From Candidatus Omnitrophota bacterium (lineage in GTDB: Bacteria > Omnitrophota > Gorgyraeia > Duberdicusellales > 4484-171), in the NCBI GenBank assembly GCA_016935525.1, contig JAFGQU010000022.1, forward strand, positions 12,471-76,470: a DNA stretch of 64,000 nt, read 5' to 3'. A program made the translations under genes and the position numbers. The notes beneath the pieces were generated by a model, which was not told the DNA's origin, did no database searches, and worked only from the letters and a program-made list of their open reading frames with translations. Shown piece by piece: positions 3,238 to 63,196 of this stretch (the first letter of the stretch is position 1; each line of letters begins with the position of its first letter).

Positions 3238-3562
3238 ACCGAGTTCTTCTCCGTTACGAATATATGAAAAGTAACATTATTTTCGATATGCCCCTTTTAT
3301 CCCGCCGCTTAAAACCACGGCTTTCAGGCTGTGGATGGATGCGGCGAGGATTCCGCCCCAAAAGAACTCCGGGCTTTTCTCTCACCCCAACATGTTTATC
3401 CAGCGGGATCCCGCTGGATAAATTACATTTATGTGCGGGAAGCCCGGGTGGGGCTCCATTTGAAACAAGGGGGCCCGTGGCATACAGGCATAGCTTACTG
3501 TTCTCTTGTGATTTGGCCATGAAGGAACTGTTACTTTTTTGTGAACAATAACCGGTATCGTC
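3238..3562 (-). other. About 320-nt GC-rich, ORF-less 5' leader / candidate structured RNA upstream of arsC
   Basis: No credible ORF on either strand; only mutually overlapping low-complexity ORFs. GC content is higher than flanking intergenic DNA. Multiple nested helices, including a perfect 28-bp palindrome. A hairpin plus T-run sits at ~3545-3600 on the + strand. Confidence 0.3.
3395..3422. repeat. Perfect 28-bp palindrome TTTATCCAGCGGGA|TCCCGCTGGATAAA, centred on GGATCC
   Basis: Read directly: the 14-nt arm and its exact reverse complement abut with no spacer. Confidence 0.9.
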
Positions 3563-9136: not shown

Positions 9137-9145
9137 AAGATTAAA

Positions 9146-9300
9146 GTCACATAGACACACGTATGCCTTCGGCACGTCACAAAGACACAAGGTCACAAAG
9201 TCACAGAGTCACATGTATTCGGTTCCACGTGTGACGTGTGTCGTGCAACGTGTGACTGCCCGCGAAGCAGACGTTCGTGTGACGTGTGACTTTGTGACCT
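9146..9300. repeat. Inverted array of short direct repeats (GTCACA x~5, then TGTGAC x~5). Intercistronic, 9307..10257 stop to eda start
   Basis: Left arm gtcacatag...gtcacaaag...ggtcacaaagtcacagagtcacatg. Right arm cacgtgtgacgtgtg...cgtgtgactg...cgtgtgacgtgtgactttgtgacc. Can fold as a long bulged hairpin. Confidence 0.85.
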
Positions 9301-10265: not shown

Positions 10266-10345
10266 CCTTTTTAGTTTGTGTGTTCGCCCGTGCTTGGTTT
10301 CCCGCCACAGGCGGGATTCCCGTTCCCAAACACGGGGTAACGGGT
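10266..10345 (-). promoter_or_regulatory. GC-rich structured 5' leader (three-way junction) upstream of the HMGL-like gene
   Basis: Outer helix GCCCGTG/CACGGGC encloses two hairpins: CCCGCC-aca-GGCGGG, and CCCGTTCCC-aaacac-GGGGTAACGGG. About 80 nt between a sigma70-like promoter and the RBS. Confidence 0.35.
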
Positions 10346-10369
10346 ACACGGGCTCACTTAATTCATAAT

Positions 10370-10406
10370 CATAAAATTATACCTGTAAAATATGAAATTC
10401 CAAGCA
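10370..10406 (-). promoter_or_regulatory. Sigma70-like promoter (TTGGAA-16-TATAAT) for the HMGL-like / eda operon
   Basis: Minus strand reads cTTGGAAtttcatattttacaggTATAATttt, ~115 nt upstream of the ATG. Confidence 0.35.
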
Positions 10407-10424
10407 CTAATGCAGTCGATGGTC

Positions 10425-10520
10425 CATGGCCGATAGTTAATAGTCAATAGTCAATAGTCGAGAGTCGATAGCCTATGGACTACGGACTATGGACTATGGA
10501 CCACAGACTATGGTCTATGG
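10425..10520. repeat. Inverted array of direct repeats (AGTCAATA-type x~5, then TATGGACT x~6)
   Basis: tagttaatagtcaatagtcaatagtcgagagtcgatagcc, then tatggactacggactatggactatggaccacagactatggtctatggact. Reverse complement of the right unit (AGTCCATA) is one mismatch from the left unit. Confidence 0.75.
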
Positions 10521-10775
10521 ACTGAATCAAAAAGCTGAAGGAGAAAAAGGGCAAAAAGCGAAAAAGTTATCAATATCTGGCAGCCAAGGACCATTATATA
10601 AGGCAGAAAGTCTTTTTTTCGTTTATAACGTTTATAACGTACGCCTCCCCGTACCTGAGCGCTTCCAGTACGGATGGTATCGCAGACGGCTTTAGCCATA
10701 TAAAGGGCGCAAAGCAGAAGTAGCAAAAGGATTCCGAGTGTATCCATGAGGTATAGGATTTAAGGCTTTTCAGTT

Positions 10776-14417: not shown

Positions 14418-14500
14418 AAGACTAATAAAATTCCAAATTACAACTTCCAATATCCAAATGGGTCTTGTTTGTAATTTGTAAATTGGTATTTGGAATTTGG
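14418..14500. repeat. Inverted array of direct repeats (CCAAAT x3, then ATTTGG x3), immediately after gltD stop
   Basis: ttccaaattacaacttccaatatccaaatg...tttgtaatttgtaaattggtatttggaatttggag. Folds as a long hairpin followed by TTTATT on the minus strand. Possible terminator role. Confidence 0.75.
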
Positions 14501-14503
14501 AGA

Positions 14504-15952
14504 TTAGAATGTCGGCAACTCGGAATTTCCCATAAGATAGCGGTCGATATGATGTGCTGCCCGGCGGCCTTCAGAGATTGCCCAGACGATCAGGGATTGG
14601 CCGCGATGGGCATCGCCGCAGGCAAATATGCCTTTTTGCGAGGTCATAAACCTTTGGTCGGTCTGAGCGTTATTCCGGTTATCTTTTTTGATCCCGAGGT
14701 CGTCCAGTAATCCCTGTTGGGGATGTAAGAACCCTACCGCTAAAATGACCAGATCGGCATCAATATCGAATCCGCTGCCCGGTATTTCCTGCATGAGCGG
14801 ACAGGATTCGGGACTGTTCGGGTCTTTTTTAAATTCGACTTCCACACATTTGATTTTTTTGATCTCACCATTTTTTCCTACAAACTCTTTGGTGAGTACC
14901 GACCAATGACGGTTTCCTCCTTCTTCATGACTGGAAGAAGTTTTTAAAAGCATCGGATAGGCCGGCCAGGGATCGTTTTCTCTACGGCACTGAGGCGGTT
15001 GCGGAAGAAGTTCGATTTGAACCACGCAAGAAGCATCCTGACGATGGGCTGTACCCACGCAATCCGAACCGGTATCTCCTCCTCCGATCACTACTACCCG
15101 TTTACCCTGGGCGGTGATCATTTTTTCAGGAACAGTTATCCCGGCAATCCGGCGGTTATTCTGTATAAGATAATCCATCGCAAAATAGATACCGTTAAGG
15201 TCCCGGCCGGGAAGAGTGAGGTCCCGGGGAACCCGGGAACCGGTCGCGATACAGATCGCGTCAAATCTATTCCGTAACGTTTCGGGTTCGAGGTCTTTAC
15301 CGATTTCGATATTTGTCTCAAATCGGACTCCTTCTTGTTCCCATATCCGCAGCCGGCGGTCGATCACCTGTTTTTCCAGTTTAAAATCAGGGATCCCGTA
15401 GCGCAAGATGCCTCCGCATTTTTCATCTTTTTCATACACGGTTACCGTATGGCCGGCTTGATTTAGTTGTGCCGCACAACTCAATCCCGCCGGTCCCGAT
15501 CCGATTATCGCCACCTTTTTCCCGGTACGCGATTGCGGCGGGCGAGGCCGGATCAGGCCATGGGTAAACCCGTATTCAATGATCGAGAGTTCATTTTCCC
15601 GGATAGTGACCGGATCATCATTGATCCCTAATACGCAGGCATATTCACAAGGCGCCGGGCATACCCGTCCGGTAATTTCCGGAAGATTATTGGTTGTGCC
15701 TAACAGTTGTAACGCTTTTTCCCAACGCCCTGAGATCATCGCGTCGTTCCATTCCGGAATATAATTTCCGACAGGACAGGCCCAATGACAAAAAGGAGTA
15801 CCGCAATCCATACAGCGTGATGCCTGTTCGGCCGATTTCTCATCACTACGTAACAAAGACACTTCTTTATAATCTTTTATCCGTTCGCAGACCGGCCGAT
15901 ACGGTGTTTTTTCTCTTTTTGTCTTTAAAAACGCTTTTACGTCCTTCGCCAT
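14504..15952 (-). CDS. gltD: Glutamate synthase (NADPH) small subunit
   Basis: Two Cys clusters ([23 protein letters not shown]). GSGPAGL FAD/NAD folds. 482 aa. Directly downstream of gltB. Confidence 0.9.
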
Positions 15953-16061
15953 TGCTCACTCCGTTCGCTACACAGATGATCGCTGATTTTATACTGATGA
16001 GCGCAGATATTTGCATCTGTGATTATATGCTTCTCCAGTTTCTGTAGCAATCTGCGTATAA

Positions 16062-19000
16062 TCAATCCGATACTTCGGTCAATCCTAATTTCTTGTCGAC
16101 ACCTTGCATTTCCAGGATCTTTTTATATTCTAACGGCATTATCTTTACGAATTTTTCCACACAATCGTTAAAATTATCCAATACTTTTTTGGCGACGGTA
16201 CTTTGAGTATATTTATAATGATTACTCACTAAAGAATGAATAAGTTGAGTATCATCCTCATGTAGGGTCTCAAATTTTACCATGCTCAGGTTACATTTTG
16301 CCCGGAAATCCTCTTCGGTATCCCATACATAAGCGATTCCTCCGCTCATTCCCGCGGCAAAGTTTCGCCCGGTACGTCCTAAGACCACTACCCGTCCCCC
16401 GGTCATATATTCACAGCCATGGTCGCCGACTCCTTCGACTACGGCATAGAGACCGGAATTACGAATACAAAACCGTTCGCCGGCAATCCCGCGGATATAG
16501 GCTTCGCCCGATATCGCTCCGTAAAAAGAAGTGTTTCCGATAATAATATTCTCCTGGGGAATATATTCGGCGTTACGGTCGGGATAGATGATGATTTTCC
16601 CGCCGGAGGTACCTTTGCCGACATAATCATTAGCCATGCCTTCTAATTCGAACGTGATCCCTTTCGCAAGCCAGGCTGCGAAACTCTGGCCGGCAATACC
16701 CCGGAATTTGATCTGGATCGTATCTTCCAGAAGCCCTTCTTCTCCGTAAAATCTACATACCTCACCGCTTAACATCGCTCCGGTAGTACGGTCGGTATTT
16801 TTAATCGATACTTCAAATTTTACCGGTTCGGAATTATTATTTAAAGTATACCGGCATAGATCGATAAGCTTTCGGTCAAGCACGCTGTCTATTCGGTGAT
16901 CCTGAGTACGTTGACAATAAGTGCCTACATCCGGCGGTACCTGCGGTTTATAGAGTATCCGCGAGAAATCGATCCGGGTCGCTTTCCAGGGCAGGATATT
17001 GGTATCGACTTCTAAAAGGTCGGTACGGCCGATAAGCTCATCGATCGTCCGTATTCCCAGAGAAGCCATGATCTCACGCAGTTCTTCAACAACAAAGTTA
17101 AAATAATTGACGATATGTTCCGGACGGCCCTGAAATTTTTTCTGCAAAAGATCATCCTGGGTCGCTATTCCTACCGAACAATTATTTAGATGACAATGCC
17201 GTAACATGACGCATCCCATTATAATCAATGTTGCGGTACAGAATCCGAATTCTTCGGCTCCCAGAATGGCAGCGATTGCGACATCTCTTCCGGTACGTAA
17301 TTGCCCGTCGGTCTGCAGGCGTACCCGTGACCGCAGGTCGTTTAAGACTAAGGTTTGATGCGTTTCCGATACCCCCAGTTCCCAGGGTAACCCGGCATGG
17401 CGGATAGAACTGACCGGAGACGCTCCGGTCCCGCCGTCTCCGCCGGAAATAAGGATCATATCGGAATGTCCTTTCGCTACGCCGGCGGCAATAGTGCCTA
17501 CTCCGATTTCCGAGACCAGTTTTACGCTGATCCGCGCGTGCGGATTGGTGTTTTTCAGATCAAAAATAAGTTGAGCCAGGTCTTCGATCGAGTAAATATC
17601 ATGATGCGGCGGCGGTGAGATTAAAGTGACCCCTGGTGTCGTGTATCTGGTTTTCGCGATGGTAGGCGATACTTTATGACCGGGCAGTTGTCCTCCTTCG
17701 CCCGGTTTCGCTCCTTGAGCGATCTTTATCTGCAATTCGTCGGCATTCGTAAGATAGTTTGTGGTTACTCCAAACCGGCCGGACGCGACCTGTTTTATCG
17801 CGCTGCGCCGAGAATCTCCGTTAGGATGAGGGATAAACCGTGCGGGGTCTTCGCCTCCTTCACCGGTATTTGATTTTCCACCGAGCTTATTCATGGCGAT
17901 TGCCAGGGTTTCATGGGCGCCCCGGGAAATAGAACCGAAACTCATCGCTCCGGTAGCGAACCGTTTAAAAATATCTTCTTTCGGTTCGACCTCATCGATA
18001 GGGATAGTCTCAGACCTCTTGAATTTCAGCAGACTGCGTAATGTCGTCGGCTGTGCCGATTGATCGTTGATCAGGCGGGCAAATTCCCGATATTTCTGAG
18101 GATCGTTTTTACGGGTAGCGTCCTGCAGGGCGGCGATACTGTGCGGGTTCCAGAGATGGAACTCTCCGTCCCGTTTCCACTGGTAAAGCCCTCCGGTATC
18201 CAAAAGTGCGTTATACCCTGAACGTTGTGGGTAAGCATTGTGGTGTCGAAGAATCGTCTCGCGCGCGATGATCTCGAAATCCACTCCGCCGATACGGGAT
18301 ACCGTACCGGTAAAACTCCTTTCGATCACTTCATCGGCAACGCCTAAGGCTTCGAATATCTGAGCCCCGCGATAACTCTGTAACGTAGATATACCCATTT
18401 TGGAAAGGACCTTTTTGATACCTTTATCTATCGCTTGTATATAATTTTTTTTGGCCGTCGGGATATCCAGTTCCAGCTCCCCTTCTCTCTCGAGATATTC
18501 GATCGATTCAAGAGCAAGATAGGGGTTTATTGCGCCGCACCCGTAACCGAAAAGTAACGCAAAATGGTGGACTTCCCGCGGTTCGGCGCTTTCTAAGATC
18601 AACGCGATCTGAGAACGGGAGGTTTTCCGTACCAGATGGTGGTGTACGGTCCCGATAGCCAGTAGTGCCGGTATGGCCGCGTGATCCTGGTTGAATCCGC
18701 GGTCACTTAACACGATAAACGTATATCCTTCTTTAATCGCCGCCTCGGATTCCCGGCAGATCGCGTCAAGACGTTTCATGAAATTATCGGAAGAATCGGC
18801 TTTAAACAGCAACGAAACCGTTTTGGTCTTAAATCCTTTCTCTTTAATATTTTTTATGAGAACAAGGTCTTCATCGGTAAGGATCGGGTGCGGCAGGTGG
18901 ACTCGCCGGGCATGAGCTTCGGTCTCATCGAGAAGATTGCGCCGTGAGCCCATAAAACATTCCAGGCTCATCACGATCTCTTCGCGGATCGGATCGATTG

Positions 19001-20591
19001 CCGGGTTGGTCACCTGCGCAAAAAGCTGTTTAAAATAGCTATACAATAATTGCGGTTTTTTAGAAAGTACGGCAAGCGGCGTATCGTTTCCCATCGAGCC
19101 GGTAGGTTCTAATCCGGTATGGGCCATCGGTTTGATGATCATCTTTAGATCTTCGCGCGTATAGCCGAAGGCTTTAAGCGAAGTCAAAGTTTTCTGTCCG
19201 TTTGCAGGCGGGGTTTCTTTCCTGGGAAGTTCACCCAGTTCTACTAAAGTGTTTTTAAGCCACTCGGCGTACGGTTTTTGGATAGAAACCGTTTCTTTCA
19301 CTTCCTGATCGTCTATGATACGACCTTCTTCGGTATCGACAAAAAACATTTTCCCCGGTTCCAGCCGGCCGGAAGAGATGATGTCACCGGCGGGAATATC
19401 GAGTACCCCTACCTCTGATGCCATTACTACCATATTGTGTGTAGTGATGATATACCGCGAAGGGCGCAGACCGTTACGGTCCAGGACCGCTCCGATCCTG
19501 GTCCCGTCAGTAAAAGCAATACTCGCCGGGCCGTCCCAGGGTTCCATTAAACAGGACATATATTTATGGAACGACCGGACCCGTTCATCAAGAAAGGTGT
19601 TCTGTTCCCAGGCCGAAGGGATAAGCATCATCATCGCGTGAGGAAGACTTCGTCCGGCCAATACCAACAGTTCCAACACCAGATCGATAGTCGCCGAATC
19701 GCTCAGTCCTGGAATAATGATCGGTTTTAGTTTTTCGATGTCCGGGCCGAACAACGGAGATGCTAAAAGCTGTTCTTTTGCGCTCATCCAGTTGATATTT
19801 CCCCGTAATGTGTTGATCTCACCGTTATGGGCGAGAAACCTGAACGGCTGGGCAAGGTCCCAGGTAGGAAACGTATTGGTACTGTAACGGGAATGGACCA
19901 GGGCAATCGAACTTTTAAGGTCGGGATCATTAAGGTCGACAAAAAAGCTCTGTAATTGATCGGGCATCAGAAGCCCTTTATAAGAGAACGTACGGCAGGA
20001 AAGGTTGGTGATATAGAAAAACGATTTTTGAGTTATGTTCGATGCAGCGACGGTTTTTTCTACCAGACGGCGGATCACGTACAGTTTTCGTTCGAACGCA
20101 AGCTGATCGGCAAGGTCCGGGGATCTTTGGATAAAAATCTGTTCGATGGCCGGTTGGGCCTTTTTTGCTCCTTTTCCGATATCGGTATTATTCACGGGAA
20201 CCTGCCGCCAGCCCAGTAACGTCTGTCCTTCTTCGCTCACGGTTTTGGCAAAAATATCTTTTAAGAGCTTTTTTTCCCGGGTATCCGTAGGTAAAAAGAT
20301 CAATCCGGTTCCGTAATCGCCATAATCCGGTAATTTGATGCGGGCGGTATCGGCTATTTTCCGGAAAAATTCGTGAGGAGTTTGGATGAGAATTCCCGCA
20401 CCGTCACCGGTCTTAGGGTCTGATCCTACCGCGCCGCGATGAGCCAGACGGTTTAAAACCCCTATTCCCTGCTGAACGAGAGCATAGGATTTTTCCCCCT
20501 TTATGTGACAGACAAATCCGACCCCGCAGGAATCTTTTTCAAATTGTGGGTCATATAAACCTTGTTTTTGAGGGAAATGAGTATATTCCAT
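16062..20591 (-). CDS. gltB: Glutamate synthase large subunit
   Basis: 1509 aa. N-terminal class II amidotransferase CGVGF. Central and FMN domains. C-terminal GXGXG domain. Confidence 0.95.
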   Translation of the reverse strand: MEYTHFPQKQGLYDPQFEKDSCGVGFVCHIKGEKSYALVQQGIGVLNRLAHRGAVGSDPKTGDGAGILIQTPHEFFRKIADTARIKLPDYGDYGTGLIFLPTDTREKKLLKDIFAKTVSEEGQTLLGWRQVPVNNTDIGKGAKKAQPAIEQIFIQRSPDLADQLAFERKLYVIRRLVEKTVAASNITQKSFFYITNLSCRTFSYKGLLMPDQLQSFFVDLNDPDLKSSIALVHSRYSTNTFPTWDLAQPFRFLAHNGEINTLRGNINWMSAKEQLLASPLFGPDIEKLKPIIIPGLSDSATIDLVLELLVLAGRSLPHAMMMLIPSAWEQNTFLDERVRSFHKYMSCLMEPWDGPASIAFTDGTRIGAVLDRNGLRPSRYIITTHNMVVMASEVGVLDIPAGDIISSGRLEPGKMFFVDTEEGRIIDDQEVKETVSIQKPYAEWLKNTLVELGELPRKETPPANGQKTLTSLKAFGYTREDLKMIIKPMAHTGLEPTGSMGNDTPLAVLSKKPQLLYSYFKQLFAQVTNPAIDPIREEIVMSLECFMGSRRNLLDETEAHARRVHLPHPILTDEDLVLIKNIKEKGFKTKTVSLLFKADSSDNFMKRLDAICRESEAAIKEGYTFIVLSDRGFNQDHAAIPALLAIGTVHHHLVRKTSRSQIALILESAEPREVHHFALLFGYGCGAINPYLALESIEYLEREGELELDIPTAKKNYIQAIDKGIKKVLSKMGISTLQSYRGAQIFEALGVADEVIERSFTGTVSRIGGVDFEIIARETILRHHNAYPQRSGYNALLDTGGLYQWKRDGEFHLWNPHSIAALQDATRKNDPQKYREFARLINDQSAQPTTLRSLLKFKRSETIPIDEVEPKEDIFKRFATGAMSFGSISRGAHETLAIAMNKLGGKSNTGEGGEDPARFIPHPNGDSRRSAIKQVASGRFGVTTNYLTNADELQIKIAQGAKPGEGGQLPGHKVSPTIAKTRYTTPGVTLISPPPHHDIYSIEDLAQLIFDLKNTNPHARISVKLVSEIGVGTIAAGVAKGHSDMILISGGDGGTGASPVSSIRHAGLPWELGVSETHQTLVLNDLRSRVRLQTDGQLRTGRDVAIAAILGAEEFGFCTATLIIMGCVMLRHCHLNNCSVGIATQDDLLQKKFQGRPEHIVNYFNFVVEELREIMASLGIRTIDELIGRTDLLEVDTNILPWKATRIDFSRILYKPQVPPDVGTYCQRTQDHRIDSVLDRKLIDLCRYTLNNNSEPVKFEVSIKNTDRTTGAMLSGEVCRFYGEEGLLEDTIQIKFRGIAGQSFAAWLAKGITFELEGMANDYVGKGTSGGKIIIYPDRNAEYIPQENIIIGNTSFYGAISGEAYIRGIAGERFCIRNSGLYAVVEGVGDHGCEYMTGGRVVVLGRTGRNFAAGMSGGIAYVWDTEEDFRAKCNLSMVKFETLHEDDTQLIHSLVSNHYKYTQSTVAKKVLDNFNDCVEKFVKIMPLEYKKILEMQGVDKKLGLTEVSD

Positions 20592-32272: not shown

Positions 32273-32327
32273 AACAACCTCCTCTTCTTGTATGGGTAAT
32301 AATTATGCGTATTTTGCCTGTATTTCA

Positions 32328-32377
32328 GGCATCCGTAAAAAATAAAAAACGTCCTTCCTCCTGAAAGAAAGGACGTC
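32328..32377 (-). terminator. Rho-independent terminator after the gltD/nfnB-like gene and its 3' repeat array
   Basis: ACGTCCTT-cctcctgaaaga-AAGGACGT with a long A-run on the + strand (U-run on the transcript). Confidence 0.55.
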
Positions 32378-32461
32378 GTTGTCCTATTGATTTACTATAT
32401 CAATATCGTTTATGCTGTCAAGGGGATTATTAAACAGCGGATAGCGTAGAGCGATTAGCGG

Positions 32462-32600
32462 ACAGATGGAAAATCCCGATCAAATCCAAAGCGCTAAATT
32501 CAAAAAAGGTATTCGCTTTCCCCATTAGGATTTCGGATTTAGAATTTTGGATTTTTAAGCCTGTGACGTGTGACCTTATGTCTATGTGACCTATTTCTTC
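32462..32600. repeat. Composite repeat element: AAATCC x2-3, GGATTT x3, TGTGAC x3 (3' of gltD/nfnB-like gene)
   Basis: aaatcccgatcaaatccaaagcgctaaattc...ggatttcggatttagaattttggattttt, then tgtgacgtgtgaccttatgtctatgtgacc. Its reverse complement has the same module order as 36793..37052. Confidence 0.8.
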
Positions 32601-34003: not shown

Positions 34004-34028
34004 ATTACTAATATAAATGTTCAATGTA

Positions 34029-34106
34029 AAATTAGCATTTAGCAATTAGCAATGTGAAATTCGGAAATTCTCTTATTTCTTCCATTGCTAAATGAAAATT
34101 GCTAAT
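34029..34106. repeat. Inverted array of direct repeats (TTAGCA x3, then TGCTAA x2-3) between the nfnA-like and nfnB-like genes
   Basis: aaattagcatttagcaattagcaatg...cattgctaaatgaaaattgctaattg. Confidence 0.75.
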
Positions 34107-34125
34107 TGATCATTGATAATTTTTC

Positions 34126-34998
34126 TTACTCTATACGCTTACCGCTATCCGCTATTCGCTGTAAATTACAGATATGTTTCTCTTTTTTTTCGTACATCTT
34201 ACTGCGCTGGAAGAGTTCGTCCCAATCGACCAAGTGGGCATCGAATTCCGGCCCGTCAATACATGCGAATTTTGTTTCTTTATCTACCGTGACCCGGCAA
34301 CATCCGCACATGCCGGTCGCATCGACCATAAGCGCGTTAAGCGAGACTATAGTCTTGAGTGAATATCTTTCGGTAATCTCGGTGACTTTTTTCATCATCG
34401 CAACCGGCCCGACCGCATAGGCTAGATGGTAAGGAGTATTGTTATGGTTTTTCTCAAGAAGACGAAGAAGGACATCGGTCACCAATCCTTTCTCTCCTGT
34501 GGAGCCGTCATCGGTCGTGGCAAAAAACTCATCGGATAGGCCTTGAAGTTCTTTTCTTAAAATAAACAGGTCTTGACTACGTGCTCCGATAATAGTAGTG
34601 ATCTGATTCCCGATGTGTTTTAAAGCCCGGGTTACCGGATATACCTCGGCAATCCCTACTCCTCCCCCGATAATGAGTATCCTCCCGAATTTCTTGATCT
34701 GGGTAGGGGTCCCTAAAGGGCCGGCAAGGCTGAATACCGTTTCCCCGATACCCAGTTCTCCCAGTTTTCCCGTAGAATATCCGGCGTGTTGAAAAATAAG
34801 AGTGATCGTCCCGGTTTCTTTATCGCTCTCCACTATGGTCAACGGGATCCGTTCGCCGGTCGCGGTGGGAATCACTACTACGAATTGTCCGGGGCGGGCT
34901 TTTTGGGCGATAAGCGGAGCAATGATACGCAATTGAGTGATTCGCAGGGGATCTTTCCGGATGAGTTCTTTTTTATCGATAATCTTCATCAGTATCAA
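34126..34998 (-). CDS. PyrK-like FAD/NAD(P)-binding, [2Fe-2S] electron-transfer subunit (NfnA / SudB-like)
   Basis: FNR-like fold. C-terminal MCGCCRV...C cluster typical of PyrK/NfnA. About 285 aa. Confidence 0.75.
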   Translation of the reverse strand: MILMKIIDKKELIRKDPLRITQLRIIAPLIAQKARPGQFVVVIPTATGERIPLTIVESDKETGTITLIFQHAGYSTGKLGELGIGETVFSLAGPLGTPTQIKKFGRILIIGGGVGIAEVYPVTRALKHIGNQITTIIGARSQDLFILRKELQGLSDEFFATTDDGSTGEKGLVTDVLLRLLEKNHNNTPYHLAYAVGPVAMMKKVTEITERYSLKTIVSLNALMVDATGMCGCCRVTVDKETKFACIDGPEFDAHLVDWDELFQRSKMYEKKEKHICNLQRIADSGKRIE

Positions 34999-36792: not shown

Positions 36793-37052
36793 TAGGTCAC
36801 ATGTCACATAGTCCCACGACACACGTTACTTTGACTTTATTCGGATACGGTTAGATTTCAATCACCAATAACCAAGATATATCTTTTAAATCCTAAATTC
36901 TAACCCCTAAATCCTAAACAAATTCGAAATGGGGAAAATCCAAAACAATACCACTGAGACCAAAAATCAAAAATATATCAATATTTTGGGTTTGGGATGT
37001 ATGATTTAGGATTTGCTTAGAGCCTAGGATTTTGGATTTAGGATTTAAACTG
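36793..37052. repeat. Composite repeat element: GTCACA x2-3, AAATCCTAA x3-4, spacer, TTAGGATTT x4
   Basis: ggtcacatgtcacatagtc...taaatcctaaattctaacccctaaatcctaaac...ggaaaatccaaaac...gatttaggatttgcttagagcctaggattttggatttaggattt. Same modules as 32462..32600 in opposite orientation. Confidence 0.8.
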
Positions 37053-49904: not shown

Positions 49905-50543
49905 TTATTTCGAATATAATTCAACTATTAATTGTTCATTCACCGGTAAGATCAAATCTTCTTTTTCCGGTAATCGGGAAACTTTCAGTTTCAGATTTTC
50001 TTTGTCGACATCAAGCCAGGTAGGCGTGCTGCGACTTTTTGCGTTTACATCTATATTTAATTTTATCAATTTCGCATAACTTTCCGACGCTTTGAAGAAG
50101 ATCTCATCGTTTGTTTTGACATGATATGACGGAATATCTACCCGCCGACCGTTTACAAACACAAATCCATGTTTTACCATTTGCCGAGCTTCGGTACGCG
50201 AAAGAGCAAACAGCGCGCGGAAAATGACATTATCCAGGCGCCGTTCAAGCAATTCGATAAGTTTACGTCCGGTAGCACCTTTTGTTCTGGTGGCGATAGT
50301 ATAGTATATCCGGAACTGCTTTTCTAGCATCCCATACATTCTCTTTACTTTCTGTTTTTCCCGTAACTGTTGAGAATAATAAGATGCTTTCTTTTGCCTG
50401 CCGGTACCTTTTCCGTGAAATCCGGGAGCATAGGGGCGTTTAGTAAAAGGACATTTTTCGGCAATGCATTTGGGCCCTTTTAAAAACAGTTTCATCCCTT
50501 CCCGGCGGCATAACTTGCATTTTGCTTCTAAATATCGTCCCAT
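49905..50543 (-). CDS. rpsD: 30S ribosomal protein S4
   Basis: MGRYLEAKCKLCRREG...S4 domain. Start set at the internal Met with RBS GAGGT. The ORF-track extension is not used. Confidence 0.9.
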   Translation of the reverse strand: MGRYLEAKCKLCRREGMKLFLKGPKCIAEKCPFTKRPYAPGFHGKGTGRQKKASYYSQQLREKQKVKRMYGMLEKQFRIYYTIATRTKGATGRKLIELLERRLDNVIFRALFALSRTEARQMVKHGFVFVNGRRVDIPSYHVKTNDEIFFKASESYAKLIKLNIDVNAKSRSTPTWLDVDKENLKLKVSRLPEKEDLILPVNEQLIVELYSK

Positions 50544-50579
50544 TCTTTTTACCTCACATTTATTGGTTAATTCTTTCAA

Positions 50580-50612
50580 GTAACGCGTAACGCGACACGC
50601 GTAACGCGTAAA
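50580..50612. repeat. Palindrome-rich motif in the rpsD 5' leader (CGCGTAACGCG-aca-CGCGTAACGCG). Shares a 16-nt core with 60380..60415
   Basis: Minus strand ACGCGTGTCGCGTTAC here vs ACGCGTGTCACGTTAC upstream of rplV. Confidence 0.45.
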
Positions 50613-50625
50613 AACAATACATTCT

Positions 50626-55933: not shown

Positions 55934-56473
55934 TTATTTGGTCATCGCTTTCCCTAATTTTTTACGGACTTCTTCACCGACATAGCGGATCCCTTTACCT
56001 TTGTACGGTTCCGGCGGATAAAGACTGCGTATTTTTGCGGCGAACTGACCTAATTGCTGTTTGTCATTTCCTTCGATGACGATTCTGGTTTGCCCTTCGA
56101 CCTTGGTCGTGAGCCCCTCCGGGACAGGCAGTTCGACCGGATGAGAGAAGCCGATACTTAAGGCAAGAGTGTTGCCTTTCATCTGGGCCTTATATCCCAT
56201 CCCGATGATCTCTAATTCACGTTTAAAGCCGGTAGTGATACCAATAACTACATTATTAAGCAACGCCCGGATGGTCCCATGAAGACTCTTGATCGGTTTC
56301 TCATCGGATAGTCTCTCTACCCATACCTGGCCGCCCTCTATTTTTGCGTTAATCCCTTTAGGTAACACAAAATCGTGCTTCCCTTTAGGACCTTCAAAAT
56401 GGATAGTCCTGTCCTTTAAGGTCGCGTTCACTTTTTCCGGTAGTGTTACTGGTTTTTTTCCTATTCTCGACAT
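55934..56473 (-). CDS. rplF: 50S ribosomal protein L6
   Basis: MSRIGKKPV...two L6 domains. Confidence 0.95.
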   Translation of the reverse strand: MSRIGKKPVTLPEKVNATLKDRTIHFEGPKGKHDFVLPKGINAKIEGGQVWVERLSDEKPIKSLHGTIRALLNNVVIGITTGFKRELEIIGMGYKAQMKGNTLALSIGFSHPVELPVPEGLTTKVEGQTRIVIEGNDKQQLGQFAAKIRSLYPPEPYKGKGIRYVGEEVRKKLGKAMTK

Positions 56474-56484
56474 ACGCTTCGCTT

Positions 56485-56572
56485 TACACAGATAATCACT
56501 GATTTAAAACAGATGATCGCTGATATTCTTTGTGGCTATCTGTGTTTTTTTATCTGTGCTCATCTGTGTTTT
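56485..56572. repeat. Inverted array of direct repeats (CAGAT(A/G)ATC(A/G)CTGAT x2, then ATCTGTG x3) in the rpsH-rplF spacer
   Basis: cacagataatcactgatttaaaacagatgatcgctgata...ctatctgtgtttttttatctgtgctcatctgtgttttt. This is a ~98-nt gap where S8 and L6 genes normally abut. Confidence 0.8.
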
Positions 56573-56967
56573 TACCATACATATCCTATAACTTCTCCGC
56601 CGACCCCCAATTCACGGGCTTTTTCGTCGGTGACTACCCCTTGAGAAGTCGATATAATAGCTACCCCGTATCCGCTTAACACTCTGGCCATAGCTTTCCG
56701 CTTATTATAGACTCTGCGGCCGGGAGTAGATACCCGTTGCAGGCTATGGATCGCGTTTTTCTTGCCTTCATAACGTAAATACACTTTTATCTGTTTGTGT
56801 TCGGGCGTATCCAATTCTTTAAAATTCTCTATAAATTTCTTTTCTTTCAGTATCTCCAGGACCCGTAACAGCATCCGGGAATGAGGAACGGCTACGTCTT
56901 CTTTACGGGCACGGATAGCATTACGTATCATTGTAAATCCATCGGCGATCATATCTGTTCTGCTCAT
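56572..56967 (-). CDS. rpsH: 30S ribosomal protein S8
   Basis: S8 signature. 131 aa. Confidence 0.95.
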   Translation of the reverse strand: MSRTDMIADGFTMIRNAIRARKEDVAVPHSRMLLRVLEILKEKKFIENFKELDTPEHKQIKVYLRYEGKKNAIHSLQRVSTPGRRVYNKRKAMARVLSGYGVAIISTSQGVVTDEKARELGVGGEVIGYVW

Positions 56968-63109: not shown

Positions 63110-63196
63110 CTCAATATACCTATATTATTATATGCGTGAGGCGTGTAAAACCCCCTCACCCTACGTTTCATCGCTTTGATCACGCAAAACGCTTTT

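What the first reader, a model, noticed from the sequence alone, without database searches (positions are those of the whole stretch)
56485..56572. Foldback array inserted in the rpsH-rplF junction of the spc ribosomal operon
S8 and L6 genes are normally separated by only a few nucleotides. Here a ~98-nt spacer carries CAGAT(A/G)ATC(A/G)CTGAT x2 followed by ATCTGTG x3 with T-runs.

S8 is the translational autoregulator of the spc operon in model bacteria. A structured element immediately downstream of rpsH could affect operon polarity or processing, or it is simply one of the genome's foldback elements tolerated inside an essential operon.
Basis: partly seen in the sequence, partly recalled or inferred. 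Interest (0 to 1): 0.5.

Follow-up and report, generated by a model that had tools for sequence, protein, structure and literature searches.

The report
Foldback repeat inside ribosomal-protein operon
An 84-base palindromic repeat built from CACAGAT units sits between the S8 and L6 ribosomal-protein genes of an uncultured Omnitrophota bacterium. It is one copy of a widespread, apparently unnamed family of intergenic foldback repeats, not a ribosomal-protein regulatory site.

Summary
rpsH (56572-56967) and rplF (55934-56473) lie on the minus strand, separated by 98 nt. Positions 56486-56569 are an 84-nt foldback. As transcribed, it has three CACAGAT units, then two 21-nt ATCAGYGATYATCTGT units that pair with them.

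It is not a conserved leader. The two nearest relatives carry unrelated foldback arrays at this junction, a third has a 13-nt spacer, and the median across 82 Omnitrophota loci is 18.5 nt.

It belongs to a dispersed sequence family:
- a second copy lies between gltB and gltD (15969-16056);
- an 85%-identical copy lies between rpsK and rpsD in a relative;
- further copies sit at other junctions in distant Omnitrophota and in dozens of metagenome contigs, 35 of 36 intergenic;
- a contiguous-unit variant occurs in Bacteroidota.

No Rfam family matches, and there is no compensatory or G·U signature of RNA-level selection. I found no target-site duplication, GTAG/CGTC tag or transposase.

Best reading: a MITE/REP-like foldback repeat. 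It is tolerated because it inserted just after the stop codon, leaves the 12 nt before the rplF start intact, and has no U-tract on the sense strand. An S8 role is unsupported. Interest is moderate, mainly for the unnamed family.

The parts
56572..56967 (-). rpsH (ribosomal protein S8, 131 aa), the upstream cistron
   Evidence: ORF. It is 100% identical to an NCBI protein named 30S ribosomal protein S8 of a Candidatus Omnitrophica MAG, Pfam PF00410.
55934..56473 (-). rplF (ribosomal protein L6, 179 aa), the downstream cistron
   Evidence: ORF with N-terminus MSRIGKKPVTLP. The orthologous gene in L001 carries PF00347.
56474..56571 (-). The 98-nt intercistronic spacer. It is the longest junction in this genome's S10-spc gene run.
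56486..56569 (-). CACAGAT-family foldback element, 84 nt: sense strand ACACAGAT...ATCTGTGT. It starts 2 nt after the rpsH stop codon and ends 12 nt before the rplF ATG.
   Evidence: nhmmer with an HMM built from 12 copies in other genomes: 56486-56569, minus strand, E = 8e-16, 53.3 bits. It is 72/85 identical to the L001 rpsK-rpsD spacer, score 55 against shuffles 10.5 +/- 2.0. Predicted hairpin.
56538..56569 (-). 5' arm as transcribed. Three CACAGAT units at 56562-56568, 56552-56558 and 56538-56544, spaced 10 and 14 nt apart, with A-rich linkers.
   Evidence: Exact matches on the minus strand; sequence.
56486..56524 (-). 3' arm as transcribed. Two 21-nt units (ATCAGCGATCATCTGTTTTAA, ATCAGTGATTATCTGTGTAAA), each a degenerate pair of about 10-nt subunits, complementary to the 5' arm.
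   Evidence: Direct-repeat family D2 and inverted pairs I1-I4.
56474..56485 (-). Residual 12 nt (AAAGCGAAGCGT) between the element and the rplF ATG. With the 2 nt after the stop codon it makes a 14-nt 'empty-site' spacer.
   Evidence: Sequence. Compare the 13-nt spacer of relative L004.
15969..16056 (-). Sibling copy of the same family, in the 109-nt spacer (15953-16061) between gltB (16062-20591) and gltD (14504-15952).
   Evidence: nhmmer E = 3.3e-11. It is 69/89 identical to the rpsH-rplF copy; alignment. Pfam identifies the flanking genes as glutamate synthase large and small subunits.

Best explanation
The spacer holds one copy of a dispersed, non-coding foldback repeat, the 'CACAGAT family'. 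Its two arms are short tandem arrays of a 7-nt core spaced about 10-11 nt apart, one arm the inverse complement of the other.

Shown:
- The element is an insertion relative to the ancestral short rpsH-rplF junction.
- Homologous copies occupy other intercistronic gaps in this genome, in a relative, in distant Omnitrophota and in many metagenome contigs.
- Copies are almost always intergenic and mostly lie between co-directional genes.

Inferred:
- The family spreads as DNA, in the manner of MITEs or REP/REPIN elements, through an unidentified enzyme that recognises the repeated terminal units or the hairpin.
- The arms then grow, shrink and decay by unit slippage.
- In this operon the copy is co-transcribed. 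It survives because it landed immediately after the stop codon and left the 12 nt before the rplF start untouched.
- On the sense strand the hairpin is preceded by A-runs rather than followed by U-runs, so it should not terminate transcription.
- Folding brings the rpsH stop and the rplF start back to about 14 nt of each other.
- Any effect on the mRNA, as a 3'-exonuclease barrier or an RNase III site as for REP and Correia elements, is a by-product rather than the reason the element is there.
For: 1. Insertion. The spacer is 98 nt here, 13 nt in L004 (S8 70% identical), 1-6 nt in the next relatives, and 18.5 nt at the median of 82 loci. Removing ACACAGAT...ATCTGTGT leaves 14 nt.
2. Not orthologously conserved. 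The sister genomes L001 and L003 (S8 92% identical to each other, 73-74% to the window) carry CGTCGT/GTCGTT-unit foldbacks at this junction. These show no similarity to the window element (scores 7-8 against shuffle means 8.1 and 8.9).
3. Dispersed homologues. These are the gltB/gltD copy in the window and the L001 rpsK/rpsD copy (85% identity, z about 22). There are 12 clusters in 1.24 Mb of Omnitrophota loci, at rpsJ/rplC, rpsN/rpsH, probably rplN/rplX, and upstream of rpmJ. At least 36 distinct foldbacks occur among 120 metagenome loci.
4. Location. 35 of 36 metagenome copies are intergenic and 22 of 27 lie between co-directional ORFs with gaps of roughly 10-60 nt. Contexts are diverse: rfbA, murB/ddl, ftsA, pyruvate:ferredoxin oxidoreductase, rpoA/rplQ.
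5. DNA-level symmetry. Sense-strand G·U against A·C oppositions number 27 against 38, with 72 transversion mismatches among 793 Watson-Crick pairs. Four orthologous copies give a covariation term of +0.62, one compensatory pair and seven broken pairs.
6. Turnover typical of junk-like repeats. Across related genomes the rpsN/rpsH junction shows an empty site, a solo unit, forward-only arrays, another family, or a full foldback. One copy carries a nested 73-nt hairpin insertion.
7. Slippage. In another window family, every heptamer of one arm has the same mismatch to the other arm.
8. No Rfam match.
Against: - No target-site duplication can be defined, because the flanks are A-rich.
- There is no GTAG or CGTC tag.
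- No transposase or RAYT was found next to any copy examined, so mobility is inferred from distribution only.
- The same core and spacing occur in Omnitrophota with only 50-58% S8 identity to the window, and in Bacteroidota. That is unusually deep conservation for a MITE and could instead point to a conserved host partner.
- All copies in Omnitrophota r-protein operons score better in the sense orientation, and 23 of 31 copies are A-rich on the sense strand. This hints at a strand-specific constraint, although in the wider metagenome sample orientation is 12 sense against 11 antisense.
- Copy number per genome is unknown, since only 64 kb was seen.
Confidence: 0.6

Rival explanations
1. A selected intercistronic RNA hairpin. 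The element is kept because, in the mRNA, it acts as a processing or stability determinant (an RNase III or RNase E/Y site, or a 3'-exonuclease barrier that uncouples rpsH and rplF levels). Alternatively it loops out so that ribosomes terminating at rpsH re-initiate at the weakly Shine-Dalgarno-led rplF.
For: - It is certainly co-transcribed within an operon.
- The hairpin starts 2 nt after the stop codon and ends 12 nt before an ATG that lacks a good Shine-Dalgarno sequence.
- Copies in Omnitrophota operons all score better in the sense orientation and are A-rich on the sense strand.
- Three related lineages each keep some foldback at this junction.
- Long structured spacers are common at several r-protein junctions in the phylum.
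Against: - There is no excess of G·U over A·C on the sense strand (27 against 38) and no covariation among orthologous copies.
- The L003 copy has largely lost complementarity even though its S8 is 92% identical to that of L001.
- A close relative and most of the phylum manage with 1-30 nt.
- Orientation is random in the wider sample.
Confidence: 0.2
2. A phased array of binding sites for a conserved sequence-specific protein, acting on double-stranded DNA or on the RNA helix. The 7-nt cores recur every 10-11 nt, about one helical turn, in Omnitrophota and Bacteroidota alike.
For: - The core CACAGAT and its spacing are conserved across very distant genomes, while linkers and interiors vary.
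- Solo units and forward-only arrays also exist.
Against: - Sites lie inside operons rather than at promoters.
- Other array-foldback families in the same window use quite different units with 7-8-nt periods, which would need many different proteins.
- No candidate protein was identified.
Confidence: 0.1
3. A terminator or insulator against antisense transcription. On the + strand the hairpins are followed by T7 and T5 runs, so the element would stop antisense transcripts entering the r-protein operon, or would itself end a short antisense RNA.
For: - The + strand reads ...GGCTATCTGTGTTTTTTT and ...CTCATCTGTGTTTTT.
- A sigma-70-like match (TCGACA-18-GATAAT) lies at 56467-56496 on the + strand.
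Against: - The terminator scan did not call the element on either strand, and the promoter-like count is within the shuffle expectation (3 against 1.8 +/- 1.5).
- The T-runs are not conserved in other copies, for example L001.
- A-rich sense spacers are general upstream of start codons.
Confidence: 0.05
4. An S8-dependent autoregulatory or leader element of the spc operon.
For: - Its position is immediately downstream of rpsH.
- By my recollection of the E. coli sequence (not tested here), it shares a 6-bp CAGAUG/CAUCUG helix with 16S helix 21.
Against: - The same family sits between gltB/gltD and in many non-ribosomal operons.
- The orthologous spacers in the nearest relatives are unrelated or absent.
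- The stem is a regular repeat-built helix. As far as I know, S8 sites have an irregular core (base triple, bulged A), which I do not see here.
- No Rfam leader family matches.
Confidence: 0.02
5. A purely local product of replication slippage and hairpin-templated repair at this junction, with no dispersal.
For: - Arms are tandem arrays.
- Homogenisation within an arm is seen in another window family.
- Solo units and half arrays exist.
Against: This cannot explain 78-85% identity over about 85 nt, linkers and centre included, to copies at non-orthologous sites in this genome and others.
Confidence: 0.03

Closest known systems
REP / BIME / REPIN elements (enterobacteria, Pseudomonas and others)
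   Same: - They are short, non-coding, imperfectly palindromic intergenic repeats.
- They lie mostly between unidirectional or convergent ORFs just downstream of coding regions, and are often co-transcribed.
- Inverted dimers fold into larger hairpins, and several families can coexist in one genome (PMC3733652).
- They produce no target-site duplication.
   Different: - REPs are single 20-40-bp palindromes with an unpaired GTAG or CGTC tag, and many are linked to RAYT transposases (PMC3733652).
- Here the arms are tandem arrays of a 7-nt core at about 10-11-nt spacing.
- No tag is present and no RAYT was seen.
- The sequence is AT-rich, not GC-rich.
Bacterial MITEs that are co-transcribed, such as Correia/NEMIS of Neisseria, ERIC, RUP and pneumococcal BOX
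   Same: - They are about 60-150-nt elements with terminal inverted repeats and variable interiors.
- They are dispersed in intergenic regions, including inside operons, and fold into long hairpins in mRNA.
- BOX elements are modular, with a tandemly repeated middle module (own knowledge; PMC3049150, PMC3184786 and PMC2229807 appeared in the search lists but were not read in detail).
   Different: - MITEs normally show target-site duplications and share their inverted repeats with an identifiable IS. Neither could be shown here.
- Here the tandem repetition is in the terminal arms themselves.
Contiguous heptamer direct-repeat arrays: cyanobacterial heptamer repeats and TAACTGA repeats of Beggiatoaceae, Cyanobacteria and Bacteroidetes
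   Same: - They are 7-nt units repeated 2-7 times in intergenic DNA, often directly upstream of start codons.
- Many different heptamers occur per genome, the phylogenetic distribution is patchy, and the function is unknown (PMC4679880; bioRxiv 10.1101/2022.06.06.494920).
- The window has many such arrays.
   Different: - The TAACTGA sets are nearly all direct repeats: 169 direct sets and one indirect in the 'Maribeggiatoa' genome (PMC4679880).
- Here each direct array is matched by an inverse-complement array, giving a foldback.
- In the CACAGAT family the cores are separated by 3-4-nt linkers.
r-protein autoregulatory mRNA leaders (the S8 site at rplE in the E. coli spc operon; Rfam r-protein leader families)
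   Same: It is a structured RNA inside a ribosomal-protein operon, next to rpsH.
   Different: - It is not conserved at the orthologous position.
- It is not restricted to ribosomal operons.
- It has no rRNA-mimic irregular core and no Rfam match.

Membership tests
S8-binding / r-protein leader RNA | The same structured sequence is conserved at the orthologous junction in relatives. | tested here: not met
   L001 and L003 carry unrelated foldbacks (alignment scores 7-8, within the shuffle range). L004 has 13 nt, and the median of 82 loci is 18.5 nt.
S8-binding / r-protein leader RNA | Restricted to ribosomal-protein operons regulated by that protein. | tested here: not met
   Homologous copies lie at gltB/gltD in the window and next to rfbA, murB/ddl, ftsA, pyruvate:ferredoxin oxidoreductase and acyl-CoA dehydrogenase genes in metagenome contigs.
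S8-binding / r-protein leader RNA | Specific binding of S8 to the RNA, mimicking 16S helix 21. | not testable with these tools
   This needs an in vitro binding assay, and no 16S gene of this organism is available. By eye the stem is a regular helix.
Any curated RNA family (Rfam 15) | Covariance-model match at the gathering score. | tested here: not met
   There were 0 matches in the whole window and 0 in 15 loci holding family copies. The only hit at E <= 10 in the spacer is a chance miRNA match (14.6 bits against a gathering score of 87).
MITE | Terminal inverted repeats flanking a short non-coding interior. | tested here: met
   ACACAGAT...ATCTGTGT, with 2-4 units per arm. Interiors vary from about 15 to 85 nt between copies.
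MITE | Multiple dispersed copies at non-orthologous sites. | tested here: met
   Two copies in 64 kb of the window, 12 clusters in 1.24 Mb of Omnitrophota loci, and at least 36 distinct foldbacks in 120 metagenome loci.
MITE | Target-site duplication of fixed length. | tested here: inconclusive
   Flanks are A-rich and no consistent duplicated di- to octanucleotide was found. The filled/empty comparison (window against L004; L016 against L040) lets the insertion point be placed only to within a few A residues.
MITE | A cognate autonomous IS with the same terminal repeats. | not testable with these tools
   Only fragments of genomes are held. ORFs next to clustered copies in L137, L162 and L175 look, by eye from their sequences, like an integrase, an HU-like protein and an amidase. 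None is flanked by the repeats in the manner of an IS.
REP / REPIN (RAYT-associated) | A 20-40-bp palindrome with an unpaired GTAG or CGTC tag at one end (PMC3733652). | tested here: not met
   The bases following the outer units are GGTG, GGGA, GTTT, GTAA, GTTA and so on. GTAG is not among the 25 most frequent 4-nt flanks at the ends of 69 foldbacks.
REP / REPIN (RAYT-associated) | Located between unidirectional or convergent ORFs, downstream of coding regions. | tested here: met
   Of 27 metagenome copies with both flanks, 22 are co-directional, 2 convergent and 3 divergent. All 4 inspected Bacteroides copies lie between convergent genes.
REP / REPIN (RAYT-associated) | A RAYT (Y1 HUH transposase) gene in the genome, flanked by the repeats. 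| not tested
   The window's proteins were not all scanned, and the whole genome is not available here.
Contiguous heptamer direct-repeat arrays (cyanobacterial heptamers, TAACTGA type) | Head-to-tail 7-nt units in one orientation. | tested here: not met
   Cores are 7 nt but spaced 10-14 nt apart, and each array is paired with an inverse-complement array. Forward-only arrays of the same core do exist in relatives (L026, L031).
Intrinsic (Rho-independent) terminator | A GC-rich hairpin followed by a U-tract on the transcribed strand. | tested here: not met
   On the sense strand the 3' arm is followed by AAAGCGAAGCGU. The scan calls nothing in the spacer on either strand.

The most novel reading that the evidence does not exclude
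The CACAGAT foldback may be a previously undescribed, deeply conserved class of intergenic element. Its arms are phased arrays (about one helical turn apart) of a 7-nt core shared by Omnitrophota and Bacteroidota. It would be either a new kind of non-autonomous mobile element whose ends are tandem recognition units for an unknown enzyme, or a domesticated array bound by a conserved host protein. It preferentially fills intercistronic gaps of highly expressed operons, ribosomal-protein operons included. It would be one of many co-resident 'array-foldback' families that together make up much of the intergenic DNA of these small genomes.
Probability: 0.2. Interest if true: 0.65.

Novelty: new variant of a known kind. 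Interest (0 to 1): 0.42.

Why it matters
For this locus, the result removes a tempting but wrong reading. The structured spacer after rpsH is not an S8 or L6 regulatory leader, so it should not be annotated or modelled as one.

More broadly, essential and tightly packed ribosomal-protein operons of Omnitrophota turn out to be repeatedly colonised by foldback repeats. Long spacers occur at 30-60% of loci for several junctions. That makes these operons a natural experiment on how much intercistronic structure translationally coupled genes can tolerate.

The family itself has arms made of phased tandem units, deep sequence conservation, no tag, no target-site duplication and no known mobilising enzyme. 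I found no name for it in Rfam or in the searchable literature. If the enzyme or binding partner were found, it would add a new type to the REP/MITE catalogue. It could also explain the many heptamer-array families seen in cyanobacteria, Beggiatoaceae, Bacteroidota and candidate phyla.

Tried and rejected
- **S8 mimicry.** No conserved spacer in relatives, and the family also sits in non-ribosomal operons. Rejected.
- **Rfam.** Gathering scan of the whole window, permissive scan of the spacer, and gathering scan of 15 family-bearing loci. Nothing found.
- **Hidden small ORF.** An ATG in the first unit opens an MxTDK... reading frame in most type-B copies. Its length (11-40 aa), frame and stop position relative to the next gene (-1 to 61 nt, or running on) are inconsistent, and one copy has GTG instead. 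It is a by-product of the repeat.
- **RNA-level selection.** The G·U against A·C strand-asymmetry test (27 against 38) and the covariation test on four orthologous copies are both negative.
- **Orientation bias.** It looked consistent in Omnitrophota operons, but is 12 against 11 in the metagenome sample. Not robust.
- **Target-site duplications and GTAG/CGTC tags.** None found.
- **Transposase next to clustered copies.** By eye, the neighbouring ORFs look like an integrase, an HU-like protein and an amidase. No RAYT was seen.
- **Intrinsic terminator or promoter in the spacer.** Nothing above the shuffle expectation.
- **Plasmid collection.** The window element gave no match. The contiguous-unit variant matched only Bacteroidota records.
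- **Literature.** String searches for five diagnostic 16-17-mers found no paper. Keyword searches found only REP/MITE and heptamer-repeat work.
- **Searches that returned nothing.** The first genome scan with the single S8 protein found nothing. The window's own contig could not be retrieved by exact protein look-up.
- **In-situ drift.** Drift of one ancestral element into the three different junction elements is unlikely, because the CACAGAT family stays 85% identical between the same two genomes at other sites. The CGTCGT family of L001 has no cluster in the window.

Full report
**Setting.**
The window is from an uncultured Omnitrophota bacterium. Its S8 protein is 100% identical to an NCBI entry named 30S ribosomal protein S8 of a Candidatus Omnitrophica MAG. 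The S10-spc-alpha ribosomal-protein cluster runs on the minus strand from about 63.9 kb down to 48.4 kb. rpsH is 56572-56967 and rplF is 55934-56473, both on the minus strand with canonical protein ends. The spacer is therefore exactly 56474-56571, 98 nt. It is the longest junction in this genome's S10-spc run.

**Observation.**

UAA-AA-ACACAGAUGAGCACAGAUAAAAAAACACAGAUAGCCACAAAGAAUAUCAGCGAUCAUCUGUUUUAAAUCAGUGAUUAUCUGUGU-AAAGCGAAGCGU-AUG

- Three CACAGAU cores form the 5' arm.
- Two 21-nt units (ATCAGYGATYATCTGT...) form the 3' arm.
- The repeat finder reports the direct families and inverted pairs of 14-24 nt at 79-100% complementarity.
- CACAGAT occurs 10 times in 64 kb against 4.0 +/- 2.0 expected, and four of the ten are in these 98 nt.
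- The sense strand folds into one long interrupted hairpin of -23.6 kcal/mol (z = -2.2).

**Not a conserved leader.**
I fetched the three closest lineages and 80 species-level Omnitrophota genomes.
- L001 and L003 are 92% identical to each other in S8 and 73-74% identical to the window. They have 80-nt and 72-nt spacers that are also array-foldbacks, but built from CGTCGT/GTCGTT units.
- Those spacers have no detectable similarity to the window spacer (scores 7-8 against shuffle means 8.1 and 8.9).
- L004 (70% identical) has a 13-nt spacer. The next relatives have 1-6 nt.
- The median of 82 loci is 18.5 nt. Even so, 30% exceed 40 nt and hold all sorts of hairpins.
- Cutting ACACAGAT...ATCTGTGT out of the window spacer leaves 14 nt, the size of an unoccupied junction.
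- No Rfam family matches the spacer, the window, or 15 related loci.

**A dispersed sequence family.**
The window's gltB-gltD spacer (15953-16061; gene identities from Pfam) holds a clearly homologous element, 69/89 identical. In L001 the homologue is not at rpsH-rplF but at rpsK-rpsD. It is 72/85 identical, score 55 against 10.5 +/- 2.0 for shuffles.

Scanning the Omnitrophota loci found 12 clusters of the same architecture. They lie at rpsJ/rplC, rpsN/rpsH, probably rplN/rplX, and upstream of rpmJ, in genomes whose S8 is only 50-58% identical to the window's.

An HMM built from 12 copies, none from the window, finds exactly two places in the 64-kb window. They are 56486-56569 (E = 8e-16) and 15969-16056 (E = 3e-11), both best on the minus strand.

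- 35 of 36 distinct foldbacks are intergenic.
- 22 of 27 with both flanks lie between co-directional ORFs, only tens of nucleotides from each.
- They sit next to genes as varied as rfbA, murB/ddl, ftsA, pyruvate:ferredoxin oxidoreductase, acyl-CoA dehydrogenase and rpoA/rplQ.

A variant with contiguous units (CCACAGATTACACAGATTTACACAGAT ... ATCTGTGCTAATCTGTGTAATCTGTGG) belongs to Bacteroidota: Bacteroides finegoldii, Haliscomenobacter and Persicobacter. All four inspected copies lie between convergent genes.

**One of many array-foldback families.**
The window holds about eight strict cases against about 0.3 in shuffles, each with its own unit: GTCACA, ATAGTCA/CTATGGA, TTTGGAA, TAAATCC, TTAGCAA and GTAACGC. 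Some units recur at two or three window loci.
- In the 10330-10507 element every heptamer of one arm carries the same mismatch to the other arm. The arrays are therefore homogenised within an arm, which is the signature of unit slippage.
- Across related genomes the rpsN/rpsH junction shows an empty site (L036), a single ACACAGAT (L024), forward-only arrays (L026, L031), a different family (L034, L044), or a full foldback (L016, L025, L028).
- The L031 rpsJ/rplC copy carries a nested 73-nt hairpin insertion.

This is the behaviour of fast-turnover repeat DNA.

**RNA or DNA?**
If the hairpin were kept by selection on the mRNA, mismatches on the sense strand should be mostly G·U.
- In 33 sense-oriented copies I count 27 G·U, 38 A·C and 72 transversion mismatches among 793 Watson-Crick pairs. 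There is no asymmetry.
- Four orthologous rpsJ/rplC copies give a covariation term of +0.62, one compensatory pair and seven broken pairs.
- The L003 copy has lost much of its complementarity although its S8 is 92% identical to that of L001.
- Orientation looked biased in Omnitrophota operons, where every copy scores better in the sense orientation, and 23 of 31 copies are A-rich on the sense strand.
- In the wider metagenome sample, however, orientation is 12 sense against 11 antisense. I do not rely on it.

The evidence therefore points to a DNA-level palindrome, not to an RNA under structural selection.

**Mechanism (shown and inferred).**
Shown:
- The element is an insertion.
- It has dispersed homologues.
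- It is intergenic and mostly intra-operonic.
- It turns over fast and lacks an RNA signature.

Inferred:
- It spreads like a MITE or REP/REPIN through an unidentified enzyme that recognises the repeated terminal units or the hairpin.
- It changes length by slippage.
- In this operon the copy is tolerated for three reasons. It sits 2 nt after the stop codon and leaves the last 12 nt before the rplF ATG untouched. On the sense strand the stems are preceded by A-runs rather than followed by U-runs, so no intrinsic terminator forms. Folding brings the stop and start codons back to about 14 nt apart.
- A REP- or Correia-like side effect on mRNA decay or RNase III processing is plausible but untested.

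**What does not fit neatly.**
- No target-site duplication, no GTAG/CGTC tag, and no neighbouring transposase were found.
- The core and its roughly 10-11-nt phasing are conserved far more deeply than is usual for MITEs. This leaves room for a conserved binding partner.
- An ATG in the first unit opens a small ORF in most copies. Its length, frame and stop position are inconsistent, so I treat it as a by-product.

**Comparison with known systems.**
The element works most like REP/REPIN elements and co-transcribed MITEs, and it resembles the heptamer direct-repeat arrays of cyanobacteria and Beggiatoaceae (PMC3733652, PMC4679880, bioRxiv 10.1101/2022.06.06.494920). It fails the defining tag test for REPs. 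It cannot be shown to meet the target-site-duplication and IS criteria for MITEs. It differs from heptamer arrays in pairing each array with its inverse complement. Searches for diagnostic sequence strings found no paper.

I therefore class it as a new variant of a known kind, dispersed palindromic intergenic repeats. The S8 idea is not supported.

**Verdict.**
The feature is real, is an insertion, and is a member of a widespread, apparently unnamed foldback-repeat family. It has no evidence of a ribosomal-protein-specific role. Interest is moderate, and lies mainly in the family and in the readiness with which Omnitrophota r-protein operons accept such insertions.

Noticed in passing
window 63110-63196 (minus strand); L001 3707-3788: The rpsJ-rplC spacer (87 nt) is orthologously conserved between the window and L001 and folds into two hairpins (AAAGCGTTT..GCG...AAACGT and GGGTGAGGGGG...CGCCTCAC). 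Unlike the rpsH-rplF spacer, this looks like a genuinely conserved structured leader or spacer. 61% of Omnitrophota loci have more than 40 nt at this junction.
   Followed up: partly
L025 1658-1830, L040 7140-7370, L049 3870-4016, L037 10396-10565, L058 487-585, L059 10396-10494 (rpsH-rplF spacers): A different conserved structured spacer at the same rpsH-rplF junction in more distant Omnitrophota. It has a first hairpin, then GAACTTACCCC, a second hairpin, then GGGTTAATTCG. It may be a real lineage-specific leader or processing element.
   Followed up: no
window 9145-9298, 10433-10523, 14432-14501, 32273-32590, 34022-34160, 36887-37047: Other array-foldback elements with different 7-8-nt units: GTCACAAA/TGTGAC, ATAGTCA/CTATGGA, TTTGGAA, TAAATCC/TAGGATT, TTAGCAA, CTATCCG. 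All are intergenic. The 318-nt region 32273-32590 stacks four different arrays. GTCACA and TAAATCC units each recur at two or three window loci.
   Followed up: partly
window 10330-10507 (minus strand): The 5' arm is (TCCATAG)x4 and the 3' arm is (CTATTGA)x3. Every heptamer pair has the same single mismatch, so each arm has been homogenised separately. This is evidence for slippage or conversion within arms.
   Followed up: partly
window 50544-50625 (minus strand): The rpsK-rpsD spacer carries a direct array of the self-palindromic unit ACGCGT(T) (GTAACGC x4.6 on the + strand). The longest-ORF start of rpsD (50579) is probably wrong. The conserved N-terminus MGRYLEAK starts at 50543, which makes the spacer about 82 nt.
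   Followed up: partly
L031 about 3389-3500: A 73-nt unrelated hairpin element is inserted inside the first unit of a CACAGAT foldback at rpsJ-rplC. This is a nested insertion of one foldback into another.
   Followed up: no
L205-L208 (Bacteroides finegoldii records NZ_OY725907, NZ_OY725905, NZ_OY725915, NZ_OY725914): The contiguous-unit CACAGAT variant forms near-perfect hairpins (about -62 kcal/mol for the one folded, L205). It exactly fills the gap between convergent genes in all four inspected cases and carries no annotation. These 'plasmid' records look like chromosome fragments, since they carry housekeeping genes such as rny, rlmD and rluA.
   Followed up: partly
L086, L103, L142, L157 (contigs Ga0256831/Ga0256832): One metagenomic organism is packed with many different tandem heptamer-type arrays (CTCTGCG, CCTTGGCG, CACCGATT, CGCAGATT) interleaved with CACAGAT units. 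This is an extreme case of the array phenomenon.
   Followed up: no
window 295-63961: 74 of 77 crude gene calls in the 64-kb window are on the minus strand, an unusually strong strand bias. As a result, orientation relative to transcription and orientation relative to replication cannot be separated for the window's repeats.
   Followed up: no
window 56538-56569 and 56486-56514: By my recollection of the E. coli 16S sequence, the CAGAUG/CAUCUG helix of the element is identical to six base pairs of helix 21, next to the S8 site. Given the family's distribution I take this as coincidence.
   Followed up: no
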